64,000 nucleotides of DNA from a bacterium. GTDB taxonomy: Bacteria; Actinomycetota; Acidimicrobiia; Spongiisociales; Spongiisociaceae. Position numbers and translations under genes: made by a program. The notes under the pieces were generated by a model, which searched no databases, was not told the origin of the DNA, and was given only the letters and a program-made list of their open reading frames with translations. Each line of letters begins with the position of its first letter. Position 1 is the first letter of the stretch. Location: the NCBI GenBank assembly GCA_026710435.1, contig JAPOQZ010000082.1:19770-83769 (forward strand), written 5' to 3'. Shown here piece after piece: positions 2 through 6,868 of this stretch.

Positions 2-322
2 CAGGCTTTCCAGGAGAGGCTCGACCGCATCGGGCAGATCTTCTCCGACCTGGTGGAACACGCCGAGGTGTCGTCACGTACGCGGTGCCCCTACCGGGAC
101 CGGCACGACCTCTGTACGGCTCTGTTCCGGTGCCGCAACCAACTGGCTTCGCCGTCAGACCCAGACCAGCTCTCGTGCGGTCACGACGGAACCTTCGATT
201 ACCGCACCGCCTGGGAGGCTCACCCCCGTGCCCGGGTCAGGGCCAAGGAAAAGATCGAGAACATCAAGCGGGAAGCAGAATCGCGGCGAGAGGATCGCTC
301 CGGAAAGGCGGCCCCGCGGTGA
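2..322 (+). CDS. 3' end of an unknown Cys-rich protein (5' partial at window edge), translationally coupled to the downstream corrinoid activase gene
   Basis: The frame is open from base 2 to the TGA at 320-322. It has host-like codon usage, a Cys-rich tail (CPYRDRHDLCTALFRC...SCGHDG), and a GTGA overlap with the next gene. Confidence 0.4.
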   Translation, partial: QAFQERLDRIGQIFSDLVEHAEVSSRTRCPYRDRHDLCTALFRCRNQLASPSDPDQLSCGHDGTFDYRTAWEAHPRARVRAKEKIENIKREAESRREDRSGKAAPR

Positions 323-2004
323 CAACCGTCTCCCACCACGGCAGTACCAGGCCGCTGGTCGTCGACCGCACGATCTTCGACTACGCGGACGAGTTGGCCG
401 TAGAGGTACCGACGTCCTGCCTGCGTAACGGAGAGTGCCACGAATGCGTGGTGGAGATAACGAACGGGATGGCGTCACTCTCGCCCCCGACGGAGCCTGA
501 AGAGTTCCTGCGCGGTGACTTCCGGCTGGCGTGCCAGGCCCGGATCGTGCGGAAGGACCGCAACATCAGTTTCATGCCTCTGCGCAGGCGACCGAGAATC
601 CTCGAAGTGAGCCGGCAACGTGGCCGGCATGTGCCACTCGACCCGATGGTCACCCGGGTGGGGGAAGAGGTTTGGTACGGCGACACCGCCATCGACGTGT
701 ACCGGGGCGCCATCTACGGCTTGGCGGTGGACCTCGGCACCACCACTGTGGTGGTCGAGATGGTGGACCTCGAAACCGGGGAAACGGCGGCGGTGACCAG
801 TTTCGAGAACCCGCAGCAGTTCGGCGGCAGCGACGTGATGAACCGGATCTCTTACGAAGCCCGCCCGGGTGTCTCCGGCGAGCTCCAGAACGCCGTGGTC
901 ACGGCCATCAACCAGGCCATCCGTGAGATGGTCAGCGGCCAGGGCTTCCGCCCACCACACGTGTACGAGGTCGTGGTGGCGGCCAACTCCACGATGAGGG
1001 ACGTCCTGTTCGGCCTGGACGTGCAGGGCATCGGCCAGAAACCCTACAAGTCGCTGATCGAGCACGAGTACCTGGCCGGGCTCCGTGCCCACACCGCGTT
1101 GCTGACCGGGACCCGCGATCTCGGGCTGCGGGCGAACCGCCGCGCGAAGGTGTACGGCCTCCCGCTGATCGCCAGCCATGTGGGAGCCGATGCGGCTGCC
1201 TGCCTCGAGACGGTGCAACTCGGAGAGACCGGCGAGACCGAGATGCTGGTCGACATGGGAACCAACACCGAGGTGATCCTCCACCACCGCGGGCGCCTTT
1301 ACGCGGCGTCATGCCCCGCAGGACCAGCCTTCGAAGGAGGCCTGATCACGTACGGTATGAGGGCCTACGACGGCGCCATCGAGTCGATCACCCTGGCCAC
1401 CGATGGTTCGGCCGACCGCTACGAGACCATCGGAGGATTTCCGGCCGCCGGTATCTGCGGTTCCGGTCTAACCGACCTGCTGGCCGAACTGCGGGGGAAG
1501 GGCCTGATGACGCCCCTCGGGGTGTTCACGGAGAACCGGAAGCTCTTCTCCATCGACGTCGTGCCCGAGCGGGGTATCACCTTCTCCAAGCAGGACATCG
1601 GCAACCTAGCCCAGGCCAAGGCGGCGAATTACTGCGGCCAGTTCATCGTGATGCGAACCGCGGGCGTCGACCCGGATGAGATCGACCGCCTGTACCTGGC
1701 CGGGGGGTTCGCCACCTACCTCAATGTGCGAAACGCCATCGACATCGGGCTGATCGCCCCCGTTCCGGAGGACCGGGTGGTCAAGATGGGCAACGCCGCG
1801 ATAGATGGCGCCCGCGCCCTGCTCGTGGACCGGTCGAGGCGCCGGCGAGCGGAGGAGCACGCCAAGGAGATCACCCACATCGAACTGGAGACCACCCCGG
1901 ACTTCTTCGAGATCTTCGTGGAGGGCTGCCAGATGAAGCCCATGCCTCTTGAGCTCCCCATGCCACCGACCGGAACCCTGGCACCGGAGCTTGTGGCCTC
2001 GTGA
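319..2004 (+). CDS. RACo-like reductive activator of corrinoid proteins: N-terminal plant-type 2Fe-2S ferredoxin plus ASKHA ATPase (DUF4445)
   Basis: The N-terminus has a C-x5-C-x2-C...C pattern (SCLRNGECHECVVEI...RLACQARI). It is followed by an ASKHA phosphate-1 like motif (YGLAVDLGTTTVV) and a long ASKHA body. The GTG at 319 overlaps the upstream stop; the longer ORF from 85 is probably spurious. Confidence 0.8.
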   Translation: MTTVSHHGSTRPLVVDRTIFDYADELAVEVPTSCLRNGECHECVVEITNGMASLSPPTEPEEFLRGDFRLACQARIVRKDRNISFMPLRRRPRILEVSRQRGRHVPLDPMVTRVGEEVWYGDTAIDVYRGAIYGLAVDLGTTTVVVEMVDLETGETAAVTSFENPQQFGGSDVMNRISYEARPGVSGELQNAVVTAINQAIREMVSGQGFRPPHVYEVVVAANSTMRDVLFGLDVQGIGQKPYKSLIEHEYLAGLRAHTALLTGTRDLGLRANRRAKVYGLPLIASHVGADAAACLETVQLGETGETEMLVDMGTNTEVILHHRGRLYAASCPAGPAFEGGLITYGMRAYDGAIESITLATDGSADRYETIGGFPAAGICGSGLTDLLAELRGKGLMTPLGVFTENRKLFSIDVVPERGITFSKQDIGNLAQAKAANYCGQFIVMRTAGVDPDEIDRLYLAGGFATYLNVRNAIDIGLIAPVPEDRVVKMGNAAIDGARALLVDRSRRRRAEEHAKEITHIELETTPDFFEIFVEGCQMKPMPLELPMPPTGTLAPELVAS

Positions 2005-3026
2005 ACCTGCCCCGCTTCACCGTCATCGGCGAGAACGTCCACACCACCCGGATCGTCCTCAGGAAGGGGAAACGGTTCGCCACCTGGGATGGGGTAGAAG
2101 GCGTCCGCTACGAGCGGCTCGACGGAACACCCCGGTTGCTGCCGATCTCCGGCAGGATGCGCCGGAGCCAGGCCTACGACGAAGGCCGTATCAAGCACGT
2201 CGCGCTGGCGGTCGACGTAGCGATGGACGGCGGACCCGATGCCGAGGACGGCCACGAGTACCTGCGGCGGGTGGTCGTGGACCAGGAGCAGGCGGGTGCC
2301 CACTACCTGGACGTGAACGTGGACGAGATCTCGCTCAAGACTGCTGAGCAGCGGGCGGCGATGGAGTGGCTGGTCCGTTACGTCGGTTCGCTGACCGAGC
2401 TTCCCATCTCGATCGACTCCTCCGACATCTCTGTCATCGAAACCGGTCTCAGCACCGCTCGCCGGGTGGGCGACCGGCGGCCCATGCTCAACTCCGCGTC
2501 CCTGGAACGCACCGAAGCCGTCGACCTGGCCGTCACCTACGGCGCGAGGGTGATCGTCACCGCCGCGGGCGAGAGCGGCATGCCTTCGAGTGCGGCCGAG
2601 CGGGTGGACAACGCCTCCCGGATGGTGGAGGCGGCCCTCGGGGCGGGGATCGAGATAGGGGACATATTCGTCGATCCGTTGGTATTCCCAATCTCGGTGG
2701 ACGGGACCTTCGGCCTTCACACCCTCGACGCCATCCGCACCATCCGGAGCCGGTACGGACCCGACATCCACATCACGGGAGGGATGAGCAATGTCTCGTT
2801 CGGCATCCCCGCTCGCAAGCTGATGAACACCGTCTTCATCAACCTGGCCGTCGATGCCGGAGCGGACAGCGGCATCATCGACCCTGTCATGAACCCACTC
2901 CCCGCGGTGTTCGCCGCTGATCGTGAGTCCACGGCCTACCGCCTTGCCGAAGACACCCTCCTGGGCCGGGACGACTTCTGCGCCAACTACATCAGAGCCT
3001 GGCGCAAGGGTACTCTGACCGAATGA
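2001..3026 (+). CDS. Pterin-binding (DHPS-like) methyltetrahydrofolate:corrinoid methyltransferase family protein (MtrH/AcsE/MtgA-like)
   Basis: Family-typical segments are present: HYLDVNVDE, PISIDSS, LNSASLE, ITGGMSNVSFGIP. The GTGA overlap with the upstream activase suggests an operon. Confidence 0.8.
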   Translation: MNLPRFTVIGENVHTTRIVLRKGKRFATWDGVEGVRYERLDGTPRLLPISGRMRRSQAYDEGRIKHVALAVDVAMDGGPDAEDGHEYLRRVVVDQEQAGAHYLDVNVDEISLKTAEQRAAMEWLVRYVGSLTELPISIDSSDISVIETGLSTARRVGDRRPMLNSASLERTEAVDLAVTYGARVIVTAAGESGMPSSAAERVDNASRMVEAALGAGIEIGDIFVDPLVFPISVDGTFGLHTLDAIRTIRSRYGPDIHITGGMSNVSFGIPARKLMNTVFINLAVDAGADSGIIDPVMNPLPAVFAADRESTAYRLAEDTLLGRDDFCANYIRAWRKGTLTE

Positions 3027-3219
3027 AGAGGTGCGCAGCCGGCGGCTAAGACCTGGGAGGCGGGGTTCCGAGGTGAGAGTTGTCCGTCGTGATCGAGTCC
3101 CCATGCCATGCCTCGAGACCAGCGGATGCCCTTCACGCACCCGTCCGTCAGTACTTCGTAGTGCGATCACCTGCGGTCCACAAAACTCGGCGCCAAAGGC
3201 GTGCGTGGCACTCCAATGC

Positions 3220-3232
3220 TATAGTTGTGGCA
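3220..3232 (+). promoter_or_regulatory. Candidate -10 box (TATAGT) for a leaderless mazE-like transcript
   Basis: TATAGT at 3220-3225 lies 6 nt before the ATG at 3232 with no SD in between. This is the geometry of leaderless actinobacterial mRNAs. I did not recognise a clear -35. Confidence 0.3.
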
Positions 3233-3468
3233 TGCCCAGGACACGAATAAGCACCACGGTGAGTGATGAACTCCTGACCCAGGCTCGCGCTGCCTTACCG
3301 GGCCTCAATGATGCCACCCTGCTGGACCGCGCCCTGGCATCGCTTTGCGCTGAGCATCGCGCCGCCGAGATCGACCGATCATACGAAGCCTACGACGCTC
3401 TCCCACTTGACACAGAAGACGAGTGGGGAAACCTGGCTGACCTGCTGGATGCTGCTGCCACTACGTGA
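3232..3468 (+). CDS. Type II antitoxin (partner of the MazF/PemK toxin)
   Basis: This is a 78-aa acidic-tailed protein (MPRTRISTTVSDELLTQARAAL...). It ends in a GTGA overlap with the toxin gene, the classic TA arrangement. Confidence 0.65.
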   Translation: MPRTRISTTVSDELLTQARAALPGLNDATLLDRALASLCAEHRAAEIDRSYEAYDALPLDTEDEWGNLADLLDAAATT

Positions 3469-3791
3469 GCGCGTTACCCCGACGGGGCGAGGTTTGGTGG
3501 TACGAGGCTCCGGACAGGGACCCTCGTCCAGTGGTTGTGCTGTCCAGAAACGCAGCAATCCCGAAGTTAAGGCGGACGGTCGTCGCCCCGTGCAGTACTG
3601 TGATCCGCAACCTCGCGACCGAAGTTAGGCTCGAACCGGGCGAAGAACCGATAACGCTACCCAGCGTCGTCCAACTGGACTCAGTGTTCAATGTCTCGGT
3701 AGCACACCTCACGGCGCGCCTCGGACGACTCAGCGACGAACGGATTCGCCGGGTCTGTAAAGCCTTGACCACTGCCTTGGACTTCCCGTAG
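3465..3791 (+). CDS. mazF: MazF/PemK family type II toxin (endoribonuclease)
   Basis: The N-terminal RGEVWW...RPVVVLS pattern and the 108-aa size are typical of PemK/MazF. It sits immediately downstream of the antitoxin. Confidence 0.8.
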   Translation: MSALPRRGEVWWYEAPDRDPRPVVVLSRNAAIPKLRRTVVAPCSTVIRNLATEVRLEPGEEPITLPSVVQLDSVFNVSVAHLTARLGRLSDERIRRVCKALTTALDFP

Positions 3792-3916
3792 TCGACTGCG
3801 GGGGTCCCTGCGTTGGTTGGGTCGGAGCCGTTCAGCCTCTGTCATCGGGTTGACGAGGCCCCGATCTGTTGAAGTCTCCAGTGTCAGCACAGCCAGTCGT
3901 CCGGTCGGCTGCTCGC

Positions 3917-4099
3917 TCAGCCCGTCTCCCCTTTACCGACGCTGGTATCCGCATCCTTGACGTACTTCTCGAACAGATCGCGGGCAGCACGACGGCCGAA
4001 AGCCCTCGGATCCTCACCCGGGACGTACACCGTACGGCCCGGAGGACGGCTTTTTTTGATCTTCTCTCGGCGGATCGCTTCCTCTAACGTTCTGTTCAT
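3917..4099 (-). CDS. Small basic hypothetical protein (60 aa), overlapping the 3' end of the proteasome-like gene
   Basis: The ATG at 4099 is preceded by GTAGGAGGTAGGA, a strong SD with 7-nt spacing. The ORF overlaps the upstream ORF by 86 nt in the +1 frame and lies in the low-GC islet. Confidence 0.45.
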   Translation of the reverse strand: MNRTLEEAIRREKIKKSRPPGRTVYVPGEDPRAFGRRAARDLFEKYVKDADTSVGKGETG

Positions 4100-5399
4100 T
4101 CCTACCTCCTACTCTATCAGACGTCCGAAGTCCACGGTCCTGCTCGAAGTAGCGGGGATTCATCTCGGGCGCGAAATAGTGCTTGCGCTTGATCCAGACC
4201 AGCCCGTCGCCCTTCGAGATCACCGCAACATCAACCGGACCTCCTACGGTCTCGTCGTCAGGAGTAACTCGCCTCTTCAGCGAGGTGAGGTTAACGAGCG
4301 CTTCGGCCATTTCAGCCAGTTCCTCCTTCGGCAACATGTCGACAACCGCCATTACCGGATCTGAGTGTTGTGTTTCCAGCAGGTCTCTCAGTTGACTGTG
4401 AAAGTGCTCGACAATGTCCAGCCTCGCCCTATCCATGGTATCTATCAAAGCTGCGTAGTCATCCGACGAAACCGCATCTTTCACTCGGTCACCAAAGTGA
4501 GCCGCGAACAACTTGATCGTTTCGTCCACGAATTCCCCAAGAGCACGGGGATAGTCCGGATGAAGACCATCCATGAAGGTCTGCACCATATCCTGCTGAG
4601 CAAACGGGCAAATCGCAGCAGAATCCTCCCAGCCGATCTGGATTTCCTCTAACTGGCGGGCTCGTACCCGACCCGCGTGCACTCCATCGACCAGATAAAG
4701 GGAGAGGGCTGGAAACATCTGTGCTCTGCCAAATCCTGCAACAACGACACCGGAAGACGCCGGTCCCCAGACTGCGTTACCCAGAGAGGCACACACCATC
4801 GCCCGAACATTCGTCCGTACGCGATCCGTCACCGGGAGACCCTTCAAGGATCTCTTGACCAATGTGTCCCAGTCATCAATCGCCTCGTCCAACTCCCGTG
4901 CAGCCACCGACTCGCCAGGACCATCCCCGGTATCTAATTCCTCGAGCCTCTGGAGCCTCGACTCGATCTGGTCCATGAGTACCTGTCCAACCACCTGTTC
5001 ACCATCGCCATGCTCGTCTGCCAAGGTGCGATCAACGGCTTTCCGGAGCCGGTCTAGCTCCCAAGACGCCCTCATGCGAACACGTGCCTGCAGGAACTCG
5101 ACTGGCATGTGGTGTATCAGGGAGGAGAGGTACTCAATGAACTCCGCGGCGTACTGCTCTACCGTGTCAAATGTCTGGAGGGACAAGTGACGTCGGTGCT
5201 CCTTGACAACCGTTGCCCACGGGATGCCCTCGAATGAGCCCCCTCCGTAGACCATCACAGCCACCGGTTCCAGCCTTGAGAGGGCAAAGAGTTTGTTGGC
5301 ACTGTTGTAGACCTTGCCGACCTGGCCACCCAGCGTGAGAGCACTGTCGGCAGCCATGACCACTGCCTCACGATTGAGGATCGCGACTTCGGCTGTCAT
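4014..5399 (-). CDS. Hypothetical 461-aa protein with a proteasome-beta/HslV-like (Ntn hydrolase) N-terminal signature and large insertions
   Basis: MTAEVAILNREAVVMAADSALTLGG...NKLFAL gives Thr at mature position 1, Asp at 17 and Lys at 35 (28 is an alternative). Later segments GVVVAGFG and GGPVDVAVISKGDG resemble the central and C-terminal proteasome-fold strands. GC and GC3 are lower than in the neighbours. Confidence 0.7.
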   Translation of the reverse strand: MTAEVAILNREAVVMAADSALTLGGQVGKVYNSANKLFALSRLEPVAVMVYGGGSFEGIPWATVVKEHRRHLSLQTFDTVEQYAAEFIEYLSSLIHHMPVEFLQARVRMRASWELDRLRKAVDRTLADEHGDGEQVVGQVLMDQIESRLQRLEELDTGDGPGESVAARELDEAIDDWDTLVKRSLKGLPVTDRVRTNVRAMVCASLGNAVWGPASSGVVVAGFGRAQMFPALSLYLVDGVHAGRVRARQLEEIQIGWEDSAAICPFAQQDMVQTFMDGLHPDYPRALGEFVDETIKLFAAHFGDRVKDAVSSDDYAALIDTMDRARLDIVEHFHSQLRDLLETQHSDPVMAVVDMLPKEELAEMAEALVNLTSLKRRVTPDDETVGGPVDVAVISKGDGLVWIKRKHYFAPEMNPRYFEQDRGLRTSDRVGGRNEQNVRGSDPPREDQKKPSSGPYGVRPG

Positions 5400-5421
5400 C
5401 TATACCTTTCTTTCACTCTGT

Positions 5422-5449
5422 ATTATAACGCTCACTAACCTAGTTACAA
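5422..5449 (-). promoter_or_regulatory. Sigma-70-like promoter for the proteasome-like gene
   Basis: Read on the minus strand it is TTGTAA (5449-5444), a 16-nt spacer, then TATAAT (5427-5422). It lies about 25 nt upstream of the ATG at 5399 in an AT-rich spacer. Confidence 0.5.
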
Positions 5450-5650
5450 GGCAGTTCTGGCCGCTAGCACGCTGCCTACCGATACCTGACGCGATTCTGT
5501 CTGGCTCCCCACCAGGTTTGAACGGCTCGGTCTCTTCCTGCCTTCTCAACGAAGACGATCCGAGCCGGTGGTAGCAGCTTGGCTATCGTCCGCTGACCAG
5601 GCACTTCGTCATCGAGAGTGGTGGGAGGGGCGCTTTGGCACTCGAATCAG

Positions 5651-6049
5651 CTAGCCGAACTCGGCTTCTATCACGTCCCGCTCGGCGCCTGACGGGCTGT
5701 ACATCCAGAAGAGCTTGACCGGCGTGTCGCCCGTGTTGAAGAACTGGTGGCTGACACCGGGCGGCGTGTAGACAACCGTTCCCGGACCGGTGACGATCTC
5801 CTCCTCCCCGATCACCGCTCGGCCGTGACCCTCGGAGAACATCCAGATCTCGGCGGCGTCCGGATGGGTGTGGAGGCTCCCCATCTGCTGTGGTGGGACC
5901 TCGCACGTGCCGACCGCGAAGTCCTCCAGGCCTTCCTGGAGCATCGGCGAGAGCAGCACCTTCACATGCCGCACGTAGGGCTCGGGAGTGGTCAGCCCCA
6001 CCCCGTCGGATTCCGTAACCACGATGGGCGTGCCGGGAACGTAGCTCAT
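5651..6049 (-). CDS. Cupin domain protein
   Basis: Cupin motifs are present (GSLHTHPDAAEIWMFSEGHG ... PPGVSHQFFNTG). The ATG at 6049 has a GGAGG SD; the longer 173-aa ORF is unlikely. Confidence 0.8.
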   Translation of the reverse strand: MSYVPGTPIVVTESDGVGLTTPEPYVRHVKVLLSPMLQEGLEDFAVGTCEVPPQQMGSLHTHPDAAEIWMFSEGHGRAVIGEEEIVTGPGTVVYTPPGVSHQFFNTGDTPVKLFWMYSPSGAERDVIEAEFG

Positions 6050-6223
6050 GATCAAACCTCCGGTCGATAAATCTAGCGGGAGCCTTCGATCACTCCCGAA
6101 GCCCATCGCCGGAAGCGACCGCAGAGACCCGTCATGTCGAGAACGGCGCGAGCGTTCAGGGGTCGTGGCCATGATGTCCCCTTATACTCCCATCCACACC
6201 CCGGCCATGGTCACGGAGGCGGA

Positions 6224-6868
6224 ATGAGCGACATCCGGTTGATCTATGCGGAGACCATTCCGGCCAAGGCTGCGGCGGCATGGACGGTAGACGCCGGCCA
6301 GGTCATCCGTATCACCGACATCGAAGGTGGCCAGGTGGGAGACCTCGTCCTGTTCGCACGGGAAGACCTCCGCGATCGGAACTCGATTTCCTGGACTCGC
6401 ACCAGGAACCTCAGAAACACCTCGACTTACGAACCGCCGCTCGGGCTGGCTCCCGGTAACACCATCTGGTCCACCGGGTTCCGCCCCCTTGCCACCGTTG
6501 TCGAGGATACGTCACCGGTCATAGGGATACACGACCTCTACGGCAGGATGTGCAACCGCGGCATGTACGAGATGTACGGAGTCGCCCCCCAGGACGGGTG
6601 CTTCGAACTTCTCCAAGGGGTTCTCACGCCTCACGGGGTAGCACCGTCCGAGATTCCCGACCCGATCGGGGTGTTCATGAACACCCAACCGGACCCCGAA
6701 ACCCAGGTGATGCGGATACATCAGCCCGTCACCCGGCCGAATGACTGCATCTCGATCCGGGCCGAGGTCGACCTGCTGGCCGCCATGAGTACGTGCCCGA
6801 TGGATGTCCTCGCGCCGACCAACAGCTACCACATCACCCCGATGAAGGTCGAGGTTCTAGGAGGGTAA
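6224..6868 (+). CDS. DUF1989 / urea-carboxylase-associated family protein
   Basis: The sequence MSDIRLIYAETIPAKAAAAWTVDAGQVIRITDIEGGQVGDLVLF... is typical of this family. The ATG at 6224 follows GGAGG. Confidence 0.75.
   Translation: MSDIRLIYAETIPAKAAAAWTVDAGQVIRITDIEGGQVGDLVLFAREDLRDRNSISWTRTRNLRNTSTYEPPLGLAPGNTIWSTGFRPLATVVEDTSPVIGIHDLYGRMCNRGMYEMYGVAPQDGCFELLQGVLTPHGVAPSEIPDPIGVFMNTQPDPETQVMRIHQPVTRPNDCISIRAEVDLLAAMSTCPMDVLAPTNSYHITPMKVEVLGG

What the first reader, a model, noticed from the sequence alone, without database searches (positions are those of the whole stretch)
3792..5650. Low-GC islet: proteasome-like (Ntn) protein with large insertions, a tiny overlapping partner ORF and its own near-consensus promoter, next to mazEF
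Seen in sequence: the segment between mazF (ends 3791) and the cupin gene (ends 5651) is visibly less GC-rich, and its ORFs use many A/T-ending codons, unlike the rest of the window. It has a near-consensus promoter (TTGTAA-16-TATAAT, 5449-5422), a 461-aa ORF and a 60-aa ORF with a strong SD. The 461-aa protein starts MTAEVAILNREAVVMAADSALTLGG...NKLFAL. After Met removal this places Thr at position 1, Asp at 17 and a Lys at 35. Established knowledge: proteasome beta/HslV active sites use Thr1, Asp17 and Lys33. Later segments (GVVVAGFG; GGPVDVAVISKGDGLVWIK) resemble the central and C-terminal strands of that fold. They are separated by two long, mostly helical insertions that canonical proteasome subunits, HslV, Anbu and BPH lack. 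Inference: this is a divergent, possibly self-compartmentalising or regulated Ntn peptidase carried on a horizontally acquired islet beside a toxin-antitoxin pair. That context is typical of stress or phage-defence cargo. I know of no described system with this architecture.
Basis: partly seen in the sequence, partly recalled or inferred. Interest (0 to 1): 0.7.

Follow-up and report, generated by a model that had tools for sequence, protein, structure and literature searches.

The report
Proteasome-like enzyme with small conserved partner
This low-GC islet carries a mobile two-gene cassette: a proteasome-related enzyme with an N-terminal threonine (a family described only by computer in 2021, function unknown) and a ~60-residue partner protein that follows it in nearly every one of 134 loci compared, an undescribed pairing that makes the enzyme's function testable.

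Summary
The 461-aa ORF (4014-5399, minus strand) has a confident AlphaFold model. Its best PDB matches are all 20S proteasome beta subunits. Thr2, Asp18 and Lys36 (also Lys29) are invariant in about 400 distinct relatives, and Thr always follows the start codon directly. Two helical insertions interrupt the fold.

The claim that nothing with this architecture has been described is wrong for the enzyme. Fuchs, Alva and Lupas (2021) described "PMI" proteasome homologues with insertions at exactly these two sites. This family fits PMI-4 by insertion sites and taxonomic spread. I could not test that by sequence.

What appears to be new is the partner. The 60-aa ORF (3917-4099) belongs to an unannotated small-protein family. 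An HMM finds it in 64-68 of about 135 non-redundant loci from bacteria, archaea and phages. Every hit lies just downstream on the same strand. 132 of 134 loci have a small ORF at that position. No third gene is conserved.

The cassette turns up in prophage moron slots, satellite phages, plasmids, and beside R-M, toxin-antitoxin and integrase genes.

Best reading: a specific, partner-bound Thr1 peptidase or transpeptidase, resembling connectase, with a possible role in phage-host conflict. Function is not shown.

The parts
5422..5449 (-). Sigma-70-like promoter candidate: TTGTAA (5449-5444), 16-nt spacer, TATAAT (5427-5422). The -10 element ends 22 nt upstream of the ATG of the large ORF.
   Evidence: It is the only such site in 3000-6500. 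Shuffles give 0.8 on average, so position supports it but statistics do not.
5405..5410 (-). Weak Shine-Dalgarno-like GAAAGG, 5 nt before the ATG at 5399.
   Evidence: Read directly from the sequence.
4014..5399 (-). 461-aa proteasome-beta-like Ntn protein (PMI-type). Beta-sheet core strands are at residues 4-52, 216-267 and 389-405. Helical region 1 covers residues 61-207 and helical region 2 covers 269-377. The tail 427-461 is disordered.
   Evidence: ORF. AF2 model with pLDDT 81.5 and pTM 0.78. Foldseek top hits are 20S beta subunits; phrog_5990 at E 8e-101; more than 4,236 homologues and 6,039 clusters at 50% identity.
5394..5396 (-). Codon for Thr2, the predicted N-terminal nucleophile once the initiator Met is removed.
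   Evidence: Thr follows the start codon directly in all ~160 loci and in 386 of 386 aligned family members. With the insertions spliced out, hhalign places it on Thr1 of proteasome beta.
4105..4110 (-). Strong Shine-Dalgarno AGGAGG for the small ORF. It lies inside the 3' end of the large ORF, 5 nt before the ATG at 4099.
3917..4099 (-). 60-aa partner protein. It has helix 3-14, an extended conserved segment (S17...Y25-V26-P27), and helix 31-55 that begins at D30-P31 and carries the motif EDPRAFGRRAARDLFEKYV.
   Evidence: conserved as protein downstream of homologues 70% and 55% identical; the family HMM hits only the immediately downstream position (65 of 65 hits among 42,294 segments; 0 decoys); alignments. 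AF2 model.
4014..4099 (-). 86-nt out-of-frame overlap between the disordered C-terminal tail of the large ORF and the start of the small ORF. The arrangement suggests translational coupling.
   Evidence: In other loci the small ORF starts between -125 and +33 of the large ORF's stop, most often at -4 (ATGA overlap). The tail ending G..G[VL][RH]PG, shared with P0013 and P0040, is best explained by constraint from the overlapping small ORF.
3232..3791 (+). mazE-like and mazF (PemK) toxin-antitoxin pair, convergent with the cassette. It is part of the same low-GC patch but is not a conserved part of the cassette.
   Evidence: PemK at E 3e-15 and a weak CcdA-like match at E 0.14; public gene calls. 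GC3 0.60-0.70; the pair is absent next to homologues elsewhere.

Best explanation
The islet carries an autonomous, horizontally mobile two-gene cassette.

Gene 1 encodes a Thr1 N-terminal-nucleophile enzyme of the proteasome-beta superfamily. It is of the 'PMI' type (proteasome homologue with multiple insertions) and most probably PMI-4. It has no propeptide, so removal of the initiator Met exposes the nucleophile. Two helical insertions sit at the H1/H2 and H3/H4 positions, which form ring contacts in real proteasomes.

Gene 2 is translationally coupled to gene 1. It encodes a two-helix protein of about 60 residues with two conserved motifs: [FY].S..E[FY]E[KR].[YF][FL]P, and (E)DP..[LF]G..LA.E.L.

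Shown here:
- the fold;
- invariance of the catalytic-type residues;
- near-universal pairing of the two genes in bacteria, archaea and phages;
- the absence of any third conserved gene;
- mobile and variable genomic contexts.

Inferred:
- The small protein is the enzyme's dedicated ligand.
- Most likely it is a specific substrate or pseudosubstrate. Its conserved extended X-Pro segment would lie in the active-site cleft.
- The enzyme would then act as a sequence-specific, partner-controlled peptidase or transpeptidase. This is how the monomeric proteasome homologue connectase acts on the KD|PGA motif of MtrA. It would not be a bulk-degrading ring.
- Carriage on prophages, satellites, plasmids and defence-type islands suggests a role in phage-host conflict.
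For: Fold:
- AF2 model with pLDDT 81.5 and pTM 0.78.
- All of the top ~40 Foldseek PDB hits are 20S beta subunits, at E 4e-4, probability 1.0 and target-normalised TM about 0.5. The alignments span both insertions.
- With the insertions spliced out, hhalign runs colinearly over proteasome beta positions 1-196. T2 falls on T1, D18 on D/E17, and ETVGGPIDVAVISKGDG on SASGGMIDVAVITRKDG.

Active site:
- T2 386/386, D18 390/391, S19 391/391, K29 387/391, K36 390/391, and G222, G224 and G278 402/402.
- Thr always follows the start codon directly.

Family:
- phrog_5990 at E 8e-101.
- 6,039 clusters at 50% identity.
- The published description of PMI-3 and PMI-4 insertion sites and distribution matches.

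Partner:
- It is conserved downstream of close and distant homologues.
- An iterated HMM hits 64 of 137 non-redundant loci. All 65 hits among 42,294 segments are immediately downstream on the same strand.
- A restricted search hits 68 loci and no reversed or shuffled decoys.
- 132 of 134 loci have an ORF of at least 45 aa starting at -140 to +60 of the stop.
- The small gene is annotated after the main gene in real phages and in chromosomes.

No third partner: 157 Pfam families occur among 150 flanking genes.

Mobility and conflict context:
- Lowest GC in the window.
- Between Q/Dam and the holin in a Providencia phage, and at the ends of Streptococcus satellite phages.
- Q-like antiterminators and repressors among viral flanks.
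- Ten plasmid records.
- Integrase with Dcm and a ubiquitin-like island, a type I R-M system, and an insertion between hydantoinase A and B.

Connectase precedent: PMC7980362.
Against: - There is no direct evidence that the two proteins interact. No natural fusions were found. Complex prediction was not possible with these tools.
- The D-P dipeptide of motif 2 is conserved only moderately: D in 39 of 68 and P in 35 of 57 ungapped sequences. The best-conserved positions are the Pro of motif 1 (63 of 64), then Gly and Ala of motif 2. That pattern fits a binding helix at least as well as a scissile bond.
- Many phage-borne partners are too divergent for the HMM. Homology of all downstream small ORFs is therefore inferred from position and pattern.
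- The 'any ORF' positional control is weak: 72-74 of 134 loci at control positions against 132 of 134 observed.
- Sequence-level similarity to proteasome beta is weak. A profile search of PDB sequences found nothing.
- There is no PADLOC match and no quantified enrichment of defence genes. At least one context (L005) is mostly housekeeping.
- Which lysine, K29 or K36, corresponds to Lys33 is unresolved.
Confidence: 0.55

Rival explanations
1. Toxin-antitoxin or abortive-infection logic. The Ntn enzyme is a latent toxic protease. The co-translated small protein is a labile inhibitor that masks it. Phage infection or stress removes the inhibitor, the protease then cleaves essential or phage proteins, and infection is blocked.
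For: - Gene layout: tightly coupled or overlapping two-gene unit with its own promoter candidate.
- Divergence: the small partner evolves much faster than the enzyme, at about 15-25% against 31-36% identity across phyla.
- Location: prophage moron slots and satellite-phage ends, next to R-M, toxin-antitoxin, integrase and ubiquitin-like islands.
- Distribution: patchy across phyla.
Against: - There is no PADLOC model match.
- The small protein has no recognisable DNA-binding fold for autoregulation.
- Gene order, with the enzyme first, is the less common order for type II toxin-antitoxin systems.
- Defence-gene neighbours make up only about 3-5% of immediate flanks, and no baseline is available.
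- No toxicity or phage data exist.
Confidence: 0.25
2. Self-compartmentalising protease. The enzyme assembles into HslV- or Anbu-like rings. The helical insertions form a cap, and the small protein acts as an assembly, gating or adaptor subunit for general protein quality control.
For: - It has the proteasome-beta fold with a complete catalytic residue set.
- Fuchs et al. note that the insertions could face outwards and form a regulatory cap.
- At least one locus lies among housekeeping genes (L005).
Against: - The insertions sit at H1/H2 and H3/H4, which mediate ring and inter-ring contacts. Fuchs et al. predict steric clashes that would prevent ring and double-ring assembly.
- No AAA+ partner is nearby.
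- Its sparse, patchy, mobile distribution and foreign GC do not suit a housekeeping protease.
Confidence: 0.1
3. Precursor peptide plus maturation protease. The small protein is a precursor that the Ntn enzyme processes at a conserved X-Pro site into a bioactive peptide, such as a signal or toxin.
For: - A small ORF is always paired with a peptidase-type enzyme.
- The small ORF has conserved X-Pro motifs.
- Connectase is a precedent for cleavage at Asp-Pro.
Against: - Both halves of the small protein are conserved and there is no hypervariable core.
- There is no signal peptide, and no conserved exporter, immunity or modification gene nearby.
- The small ORF lies downstream of the enzyme rather than upstream.
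Confidence: 0.06
4. The 60-aa ORF is a chance or overprinted ORF, or an unrelated moron, with no functional tie to the enzyme. Alternatively, the enzyme is a catalytically dead scaffold.
For: - The window's small ORF overlaps the enzyme's tail.
- Control positions also carry random ORFs of at least 45 aa in about half of the loci.
Against: - Conservation at the protein level across phyla, with perfect positional specificity and no decoy hits.
- Independent gene calls in phages and chromosomes.
- Thr2, Asp18 and the two lysines are invariant, which argues against a dead enzyme.
Confidence: 0.03

Closest known systems
PMI-4 (and PMI-3), 'Proteasome homolog with Multiple Insertions' (Fuchs, Alva and Lupas, Bioinformatics 2021, PMC8665760)
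   Same: - Proteasome-beta-like core with Thr1, Asp17 and Lys33-type residues and no propeptide.
- Long insertions after H1/H2 and between H3/H4, and none between S3 and S4.
- A large family spread over Proteobacteria, Firmicutes, Actinobacteria, Bacteroidetes, PVC, Cyanobacteria, Euryarchaeota and phages.
   Different: - That paper reports no informative genomic context or co-occurring gene. Here a small partner follows the gene almost everywhere.
- Identity with PMI-4 could not be checked by sequence, because the representative HDY66466.1 is not retrievable with these tools.
- The family is also far larger than reported: 6,039 clusters at 50% identity against 501 nr90 sequences.
Connectase (archaeal monomeric proteasome homologue, DUF2121; PMC7980362)
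   Same: - Ntn enzyme with Thr1 or Ser1 exposed by Met removal.
- Monomeric because of changed helical elements.
- Helical insertions thought to control specificity.
- Acts on one specific protein through a short conserved motif containing Asp-Pro, bound by beta-augmentation. The small partner here has conserved X-Pro motifs in an extended segment and at a helix N-cap.
   Different: - Connectase lacks H1/H2 and has its insertion between S3 and S4. This family keeps the helices and carries insertions elsewhere.
- The connectase substrate MtrA is a large enzyme that is not encoded next to it.
- Connectase is restricted to methanogens.
- No biochemical data exist for the present family.
- There is no significant sequence similarity.
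HslV, 20S proteasome beta, Anbu, BPH
   Same: - Shared fold and catalytic residues.
- Like Anbu and BPH, the family has no propeptide.
   Different: - About 230 extra residues in two helical insertions.
- No AAA+ or alpha-subunit partner genes.
- Accessory, mobile distribution.
- Ring assembly is doubtful.
pup-prcB-prcA operon of Actinobacteria (small ~64-aa Pup next to proteasome genes)
   Same: A gene for a small, largely helical or disordered protein of about 60 residues sits next to a proteasome-beta-type gene.
   Different: - Pup lies upstream and ends in GGQ/GGE for conjugation by PafA.
- The partner here has a variable C-terminus and lacks that motif.
- No ligase, depupylase or Mpa genes are present.
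Type II toxin-antitoxin and small two-gene anti-phage modules carried as prophage or satellite morons
   Same: - Compact coupled gene pair.
- Foreign GC and variable insertion sites.
- Carriage on prophages, satellites and plasmids, and next to R-M and toxin-antitoxin genes.
   Different: - No match to any PADLOC model.
- No toxin-antitoxin-type domains.
- Function untested.

Membership tests
Proteasome-like Ntn hydrolases (proteasome beta, HslV, Anbu, BPH, connectase superfamily) | Alpha-beta-beta-alpha Ntn core fold of proteasome beta | tested here: met
   - AF2 model with pLDDT 81.5.
- All of the top ~40 Foldseek PDB hits are 20S beta subunits, at probability up to 1.0 and TM about 0.5 normalised to the target.
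Proteasome-like Ntn hydrolases (proteasome beta, HslV, Anbu, BPH, connectase superfamily) | Thr, Ser or Cys nucleophile at mature position 1 | tested here: met
   - Thr follows the start codon directly in all ~160 loci.
- T2 is present in 386 of 386 aligned members.
- Removal of Met before Thr is established knowledge about methionine aminopeptidase. It was not tested here.
Proteasome-like Ntn hydrolases (proteasome beta, HslV, Anbu, BPH, connectase superfamily) | Asp/Glu17 and Lys33 equivalents, and the C-terminal ..GG.[IV]D[IV]..[IV]...G motif | tested here: met
   - D18 390/391, K36 390/391 and K29 387/391.
- hhalign places D18 on residue 17 and aligns TVGGPIDVAVISKGDG with ASGGMIDVAVITRKDG.
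- Which lysine equals Lys33 is unresolved. hhalign picks K29. Spacing and the predicted strand favour K36.
Proteasome-like Ntn hydrolases (proteasome beta, HslV, Anbu, BPH, connectase superfamily) | Significant sequence or profile similarity to Pfam Proteasome (PF00227) or to solved proteasome chains | tested here: not met
   - No Pfam or NCBIfam hit.
- phmmer and profile hmmsearch against PDB sequences found no proteasome chain.
- hhalign gives only E about 2e-3 at probability 11-16%.
- Membership therefore rests on fold and active-site residues. The same is true of the published PMI families.
PMI-4 (Fuchs et al. 2021) | Long insertions after H1/H2 and between H3/H4, with no S3/S4 insertion | tested here: met
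   - The AF2 secondary structure shows strands 37-39 and 46-52 close together.
- Helices fill residues 61-207 and 269-377, between the sheet segments.
PMI-4 (Fuchs et al. 2021) | Broad distribution that includes Actinobacteria, Firmicutes, Bacteroidetes, PVC, Cyanobacteria, Euryarchaeota and phages. PMI-3 is limited to Proteobacteria, other bacteria and Euryarchaeota. | tested here: met
   - Genome loci come from all of these groups.
- 224 viral-contig loci.
- 13 phage records.
- Table 1 of the paper.
PMI-4 (Fuchs et al. 2021) | Sequence clustering with the PMI-4 representative HDY66466.1 or with the authors' alignment | not testable with these tools
   The representative sequence and the Mendeley and MPI-Toolkit data cannot be fetched here. 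The supplement held as text does not contain it.
Connectase | Two-helix insertion between S3 and S4, loss of H1/H2, and MtrA KDPGA substrate | tested here: not met
   - There is no S3/S4 insertion and the helices after S4 are present.
- The family occurs far beyond methanogens.
- The resemblance is only in the proposed mode of action.
HslVU or 20S-type self-compartmentalising protease systems | Adjacent AAA+ unfoldase or alpha-subunit gene, and ring assembly | tested here: not met
   - No AAA+ or alpha-type neighbour appears in any annotated context.
- Ring assembly itself cannot be tested here.
Known anti-phage defence systems (PADLOC-DB v2.0.0) | Match of either protein to a defence-system model | tested here: not met
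   No PADLOC hit for either protein at E up to 1.

The most novel reading that the evidence does not exclude
The enzyme and its small partner form a previously unrecognised and very widespread two-component module, with at least 6,000 sequence clusters in bacteria, archaea, phages and satellites. In it, a connectase-like Thr1 transpeptidase or protease acts on, or is gated by, its own co-encoded ~60-residue protein. The module would function in phage-host conflict as defence, exclusion or counter-defence. That would give the first function for any of the 22 'orphan' proteasome homologues, and possibly a new family of sequence-specific protein ligases or proteases.
Probability: 0.3. Interest if true: 0.8.

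Novelty: new variant of a known kind. Interest (0 to 1): 0.6.

Why it matters
Fuchs et al. catalogued 22 new proteasome homologues in 2021. They stated that no genomic context hinted at what any of them does. The held literature contains no follow-up on the PMI families.

A near-universal, translationally coupled small partner turns this orphan enzyme into a defined two-protein system. It can be co-expressed, pulled down, checked by mass spectrometry for Thr1-dependent cleavage or ligation, and tested against phages.

If the enzyme works like connectase, the family could yield new sequence-specific ligases or proteases, each supplied with its own recognition tag. If it is a defence or exclusion module, it adds a proteasome-type protease to the prokaryotic immune repertoire.

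The case also shows how short, overlapping genes that often go unannotated can hide conserved operon partners.

Tried and rejected
- Sequence-level family assignment failed. Pfam, NCBIfam and PADLOC gave nothing for either protein. phmmer and profile hmmsearch against PDB sequences gave only noise such as bacterioferritin and de novo helical bundles.
Splicing out the insertions gave a colinear alignment, but with low probability.
- My first small-ORF HMM, built from Acidimicrobiia copies, found the partner only in close relatives and one Methanosaeta locus. A seed of diverse copies was needed.
- The simple 'is there any ORF downstream' test has weak controls: 72-74 of 134 loci at control positions. 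I rely on the HMM's positional specificity instead.
- A search for in-frame fusions of partner and enzyme found none.
- The BFVD viral fold library gave one uninformative hit.
- A profile search for the small protein in the 5.8-billion-protein database returned only 14 unnamed hits.
- No att-like repeats, tRNAs or Rfam elements mark the islet borders.
- I considered predicting the complex from a linker fusion.
- I rejected a Pup-like tag because there is no GGQ/GGE end and no PafA or Mpa gene.
- I rejected a RiPP-like precursor as the main reading because there is no variable core and no export or modification genes.
- mazEF is not part of the system. It is adjacent only in this organism.
Full report
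OBSERVATION

All the described features are present.

The minus strand carries a 461-aa ORF at 4014..5399, starting MTAEVAILNREAVVMAADSALTLGG. A 60-aa ORF at 3917..4099 overlaps its 3' end by 86 nt in another frame. AGGAGG lies at 4110-4105, 5 nt before the ATG of the small ORF.

TTGTAA-16-TATAAT lies at 5449-5422, 22 nt upstream of the ATG of the large ORF. It is the only promoter-like site in 3000-6500. Shuffled sequence gives 0.8 such sites on average, so its position is suggestive but its occurrence is not statistically remarkable.

The flanking genes are a PemK/MazF toxin (Pfam E 3e-15) with a small upstream antitoxin-like ORF, and a cupin.

The segment 3792-5650 has GC 0.577. It is the lowest-GC 1859-nt stretch in the 64-kb window, whose median is 0.655. 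GC3 is 0.64-0.66 for the two ORFs and 0.85-0.87 for the neighbouring metabolic genes. mazE and mazF (GC3 0.60-0.70) belong to the same patch. No att-like repeats, tRNA genes or Rfam elements mark the borders.

WHAT THE LARGE PROTEIN IS

Sequence libraries do not recognise it. Pfam, NCBIfam and PADLOC give no hit. Single-sequence and profile searches of PDB sequences give only noise. It does match PHROG 5990, of unknown function, end to end at E 8e-101.

It belongs to a very large family:
- more than 4,236 hits in the 90%-identity clustered database, none with a Pfam domain and none named;
- 6,039 clusters at 50% identity with E at most 1e-3, and 3,363 with E at most 1e-30.

An AlphaFold2 model built on a 59-sequence alignment is confident, with pLDDT 81.5 and pTM 0.78. 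It shows beta strands at residues 4-52, 216-267 and 389-405. Two all-helical regions (61-207 and 269-377) separate them, and the tail 427-461 is disordered.

Foldseek against the PDB returns 20S proteasome beta subunits as all of the top ~40 hits. These include yeast beta4, human and parasite beta subunits, and M. tuberculosis PrcB. The best E is 4.3e-4, probability reaches 1.0, and TM is about 0.5 when normalised to the target. The alignments span about 405-440 columns, so they bridge both insertions. The large rmsd values reflect those unaligned insertions.

At sequence level the signal is weak but colinear.
- The full profile aligns only TVGGPIDVAVISKGDG with ASGGMIDVAVITRKDG (E 0.003).
- With the insertions spliced out, the alignment runs over template positions 1-196 (E 0.002, probability 13%). 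It places T2 on Thr1, D18 on residue 17, and VVVAGFG...LVDG on the LLVGG...IDAAG strands.

ACTIVE SITE

In every one of about 160 loci the start codon (ATG, GTG or TTG) is followed directly by Thr. These loci come from genomes and viral contigs and are 31-100% identical to the window protein.

Conservation across 402 distinct family members:

| Residue | Conserved |
|---|---|
| T2 | 386/386 |
| N9 | 390/390 |
| D18 | 390/391 |
| S19 | 391/391 |
| K29 | 387/391 |
| K36 | 390/391 |
| G222, G224, G278 | 402/402 |
| Q268 | 399/402 |
| D390 | 398/399 |

Thr in the second position permits removal of the initiator Met by methionine aminopeptidase. This is established knowledge, and the connectase paper exploits it. 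The mature protein should therefore begin with the nucleophile. Like Anbu, BPH and connectase, it has no propeptide.

hhalign picks K29 as the Lys33 equivalent. Both lysines are invariant, so the assignment stays open.

IS IT KNOWN?

Yes, as a computational family. Fuchs, Alva and Lupas (Bioinformatics 2021, PMC8665760) described 22 new proteasome homologues, among them PMI-1 to PMI-6 ('Proteasome homolog with Multiple Insertions').

PMI-3 and PMI-4 have long insertions after H1/H2 and between H3/H4. PMI-5 and PMI-6 have an insertion between S3 and S4, which the protein here lacks. PMI-4 is the numerous subtype, with 501 nr90 sequences. It occurs in Proteobacteria, Firmicutes, Actinobacteria, Bacteroidetes, PVC, Cyanobacteria, other bacteria, Euryarchaeota and phages.

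My loci cover exactly that range:
- Acidimicrobiia, Clostridium, Paenibacillus and Bacillus;
- cyanobacteria, Bacteroidota and Planctomycetota;
- many Proteobacteria;
- Methanosaeta, ANME-1 and Methanoregulaceae;
- 224 viral contigs.

The family is therefore most probably PMI-4. I could not verify this by sequence, because the representative HDY66466.1 is not retrievable here.

[quoted passage not shown] They argue that the insertions should hinder ring and double-ring assembly. No other paper in the held literature mentions PMI-4. No paper combines 'proteasome homolog' with defence systems and phages. A 2026 review cites the 2021 paper only in its reference list.

THE SMALL PARTNER

The 60-aa ORF is a real, conserved gene.

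A recognisably homologous small ORF follows the large gene in every close relative fetched: L005 to L010, at about 50-70% identity. L009 carries two tandem copies. It also follows a Methanosaeta homologue that is only 36% identical.

I seeded an HMM with nine diverse copies and iterated it. It hits 64 of 137 non-redundant loci. All 65 hits among 42,294 stop-to-stop segments lie on the same strand immediately downstream of the large gene, and none lies elsewhere. A search restricted to downstream candidates, with reversed and shuffled decoys added, gives 68 loci and no decoys.

132 of 134 usable loci have a same-strand ORF of at least 45 aa starting between -140 and +60 of the large gene's stop. 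Starts among the HMM-positive copies cluster around -4 (an ATGA overlap). This presence test alone is weak, because control positions score 26-74 of 134. Many of the HMM-negative ORFs, mostly phage-borne, still show the first motif, for example ELREWQKKFNP or FVKHYFPN.

The consensus is [KR].[FY].S[IM].E[FY]E[KR].[YF][FL]P, then a charged linker of about 10-14 residues, then E-D-P-x-x-[LF]-G-x-x-L-A-x-E-x-L-x-K. Among aligned, ungapped sequences:
- Pro of motif 1: 63 of 64;
- Ala: 54 of 60;
- Gly: 52 of 61;
- Ser: 49 of 57;
- Asp: 39 of 68;
- Pro of motif 2: 35 of 57.

The window's copy keeps a degenerate motif 1 (K-S-RPPGRT-V-Y-V-P), a shortened linker and a clear motif 2 (EDPRAFGRRAARDLFEKYV).

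Its AlphaFold model has pLDDT 70. It shows helix 3-14, an extended segment 15-30 that contains motif 1, and a long helix 31-55 with pLDDT about 86 that starts at D30-P31.

The small protein has no Pfam domain and no name in any source. A profile search returned 14 database hits, all 'hypothetical' and 55-68 aa long. Gene callers do report it in several places:
- after the homologue in Providencia phage PSTRCR_117lys (58 aa);
- after the homologue in a Porphyromonas phage (55 aa);
- in four chromosomal contigs.

No in-frame fusions of the two proteins were found.

The window enzyme's long C-terminal tail ends in G..G[VL][RH]PG, as do P0013 and P0040. This is best explained as read-through over the start of the small ORF, not as a functional extension.

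CONTEXT

No third gene is conserved. The 150 immediate neighbours of genomic loci fall into 157 Pfam families. The commonest, the N6_N4 DNA methylase, occurs 4 times. The top PADLOC matches are mad2 (7 of 150) and type II methyltransferases (4 of 150).

The cassette is mobile. Records that carry it:
- 13 phage records. Several are Streptococcus satellite phages and prophages with the gene at the very end of the element. A lambdoid Providencia phage has it between Q/Dam and the holin, the classic moron slot.
- Viral contigs whose flanking genes are Q-like antiterminators (9 of 149), repressors, HNH endonucleases, head genes and endolysins.
- 10 plasmid records: Rhizobium, Ruegeria, Mesorhizobium, Pantoea and Enterococcus faecium.

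Annotated chromosomal contexts:
- mazEF in the window;
- HipA-HTH within 5 kb;
- integrase plus Dcm upstream, with an HTH, Multi_ubiq and ThiF island downstream;
- an insertion between hydantoinase B and A;
- a type I R-M system directly downstream;
- one mostly housekeeping locus.

This pattern fits accessory or conflict cargo. I have no background rate, so I do not claim enrichment.

MECHANISM

Shown:
- a proteasome-beta-fold protein with a strictly conserved N-terminal Thr and Asp/Lys set;
- a conserved, coupled small partner;
- autonomy and mobility of the pair.

Inferred: the two proteins act together. The closest functional precedent is connectase. It is a monomeric proteasome homologue whose altered helical elements give it specificity for one protein. 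It binds a short conserved KDPGA motif by beta-augmentation, places the Asp-Pro bond in the active-site cleft, and forms a Thr1-dependent covalent intermediate (PMC7980362).

The partner here offers a nearly invariant [YF][FLV]-Pro in an extended segment and a D-P at a helix N-cap. I therefore favour a specific peptidase or transpeptidase that is occupied or controlled by its partner, with the partner acting as substrate or pseudosubstrate. My confidence in this composite reading is about 0.55.

The main rival (about 0.25) is a toxin-antitoxin or abortive-infection variant, in which the partner is a labile inhibitor of a toxic protease. A ring-forming quality-control protease (about 0.1), a precursor-peptide system (about 0.06) and 'no functional link, or a dead enzyme' (about 0.03) are less likely.

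Points against the favoured reading:
- There is no interaction evidence.
- The D-P dipeptide is only moderately conserved.
- The phage-borne partners are highly divergent.

VERDICT

The structural interpretation is correct.

It is justified for the gene pair. The near-universal small partner appears to be undescribed, and it makes an orphan enzyme family experimentally tractable.

Interest is 0.6. Novelty rating: new variant of a known kind.

Noticed in passing
window 319-3026 and further towards position 1 (L001 12374-17628 in reverse orientation): The low-GC patch is bordered on one side by a corrinoid-dependent methyltransferase cluster. It includes a pterin-binding/CdhD-like protein (2001-3026 +), a RACo-type reductive activator (Fer2/RACo), a B12-binding protein and a URO-D/MtaA-like methyltransferase. 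On the other side are cupin, DUF1989, TenA, an amidohydrolase and an NMT1-type ABC transporter. This fits a methylated-amine or betaine-using sponge-associated Acidimicrobiia-like organism.
   Followed up: no
L009 7283-7708: One Aldehydirespiratoraceae genome has two tandem copies of the small partner gene after a single enzyme gene. Both carry the (Y/D)(E/D)DPREFGRRVA motif.
   Followed up: partly
L171 5692-11121: Here the cassette sits directly after a split phage integrase and a Dcm methylase. An HTH regulator and a Multi_ubiq plus ThiF (E1-like) ubiquitin-like conjugation operon follow it. This places a proteasome homologue next to a bacterial ubiquitin-like system on a mobile island.
   Followed up: no
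L172 3016-10668: The cassette, with a few small ORFs and an SLH-domain gene, lies between the Hydantoinase_B and Hydantoinase_A genes, which are normally adjacent. This looks like a clean insertion. An HNH endonuclease gene is next to it.
   Followed up: no
window 4014-4099; P0013 and P0040 C-termini: The enzyme's disordered C-terminal extension ends in G..G[VL][RH]PG in three otherwise divergent homologues. The conservation is probably imposed by the overlapping frame that encodes the N-terminal part of the small partner (overprinting).
   Followed up: partly
small-partner motif 1 compared with enzyme residues ~74-92: The small-protein HMM gives sub-significant matches (E 0.3-10) to the enzyme's own first helix after S4, for example F.T[VI]EEYA..F[IF]..L against [FY].S[IM].E[FY]E[KR].[YF][FL]P. 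This could be chance, or it could hint at helix mimicry between the partner and the enzyme.
   Followed up: no
MK448488.1, MK448354.1, MK448509.1 and related records (L168): Streptococcus 'Javan' satellite phages carry the enzyme gene at the very end of the 8-14-kb element. In Javan421 it lies near a HAD hydrolase and a RelBE pair. The small partner is not annotated there; a 544-nt gap follows the gene.
   Followed up: partly
window 1-64000: There are no tRNA or tmRNA genes and no Rfam family at gathering threshold anywhere in the 64-kb window, despite the B12- and thiamine-related gene clusters, where riboswitches might be expected.
   Followed up: partly
window 1716-3170 (-): A 484-aa ORF lies antisense to the pterin-binding and RACo genes. 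It is almost certainly a spurious high-GC shadow ORF.
   Followed up: no
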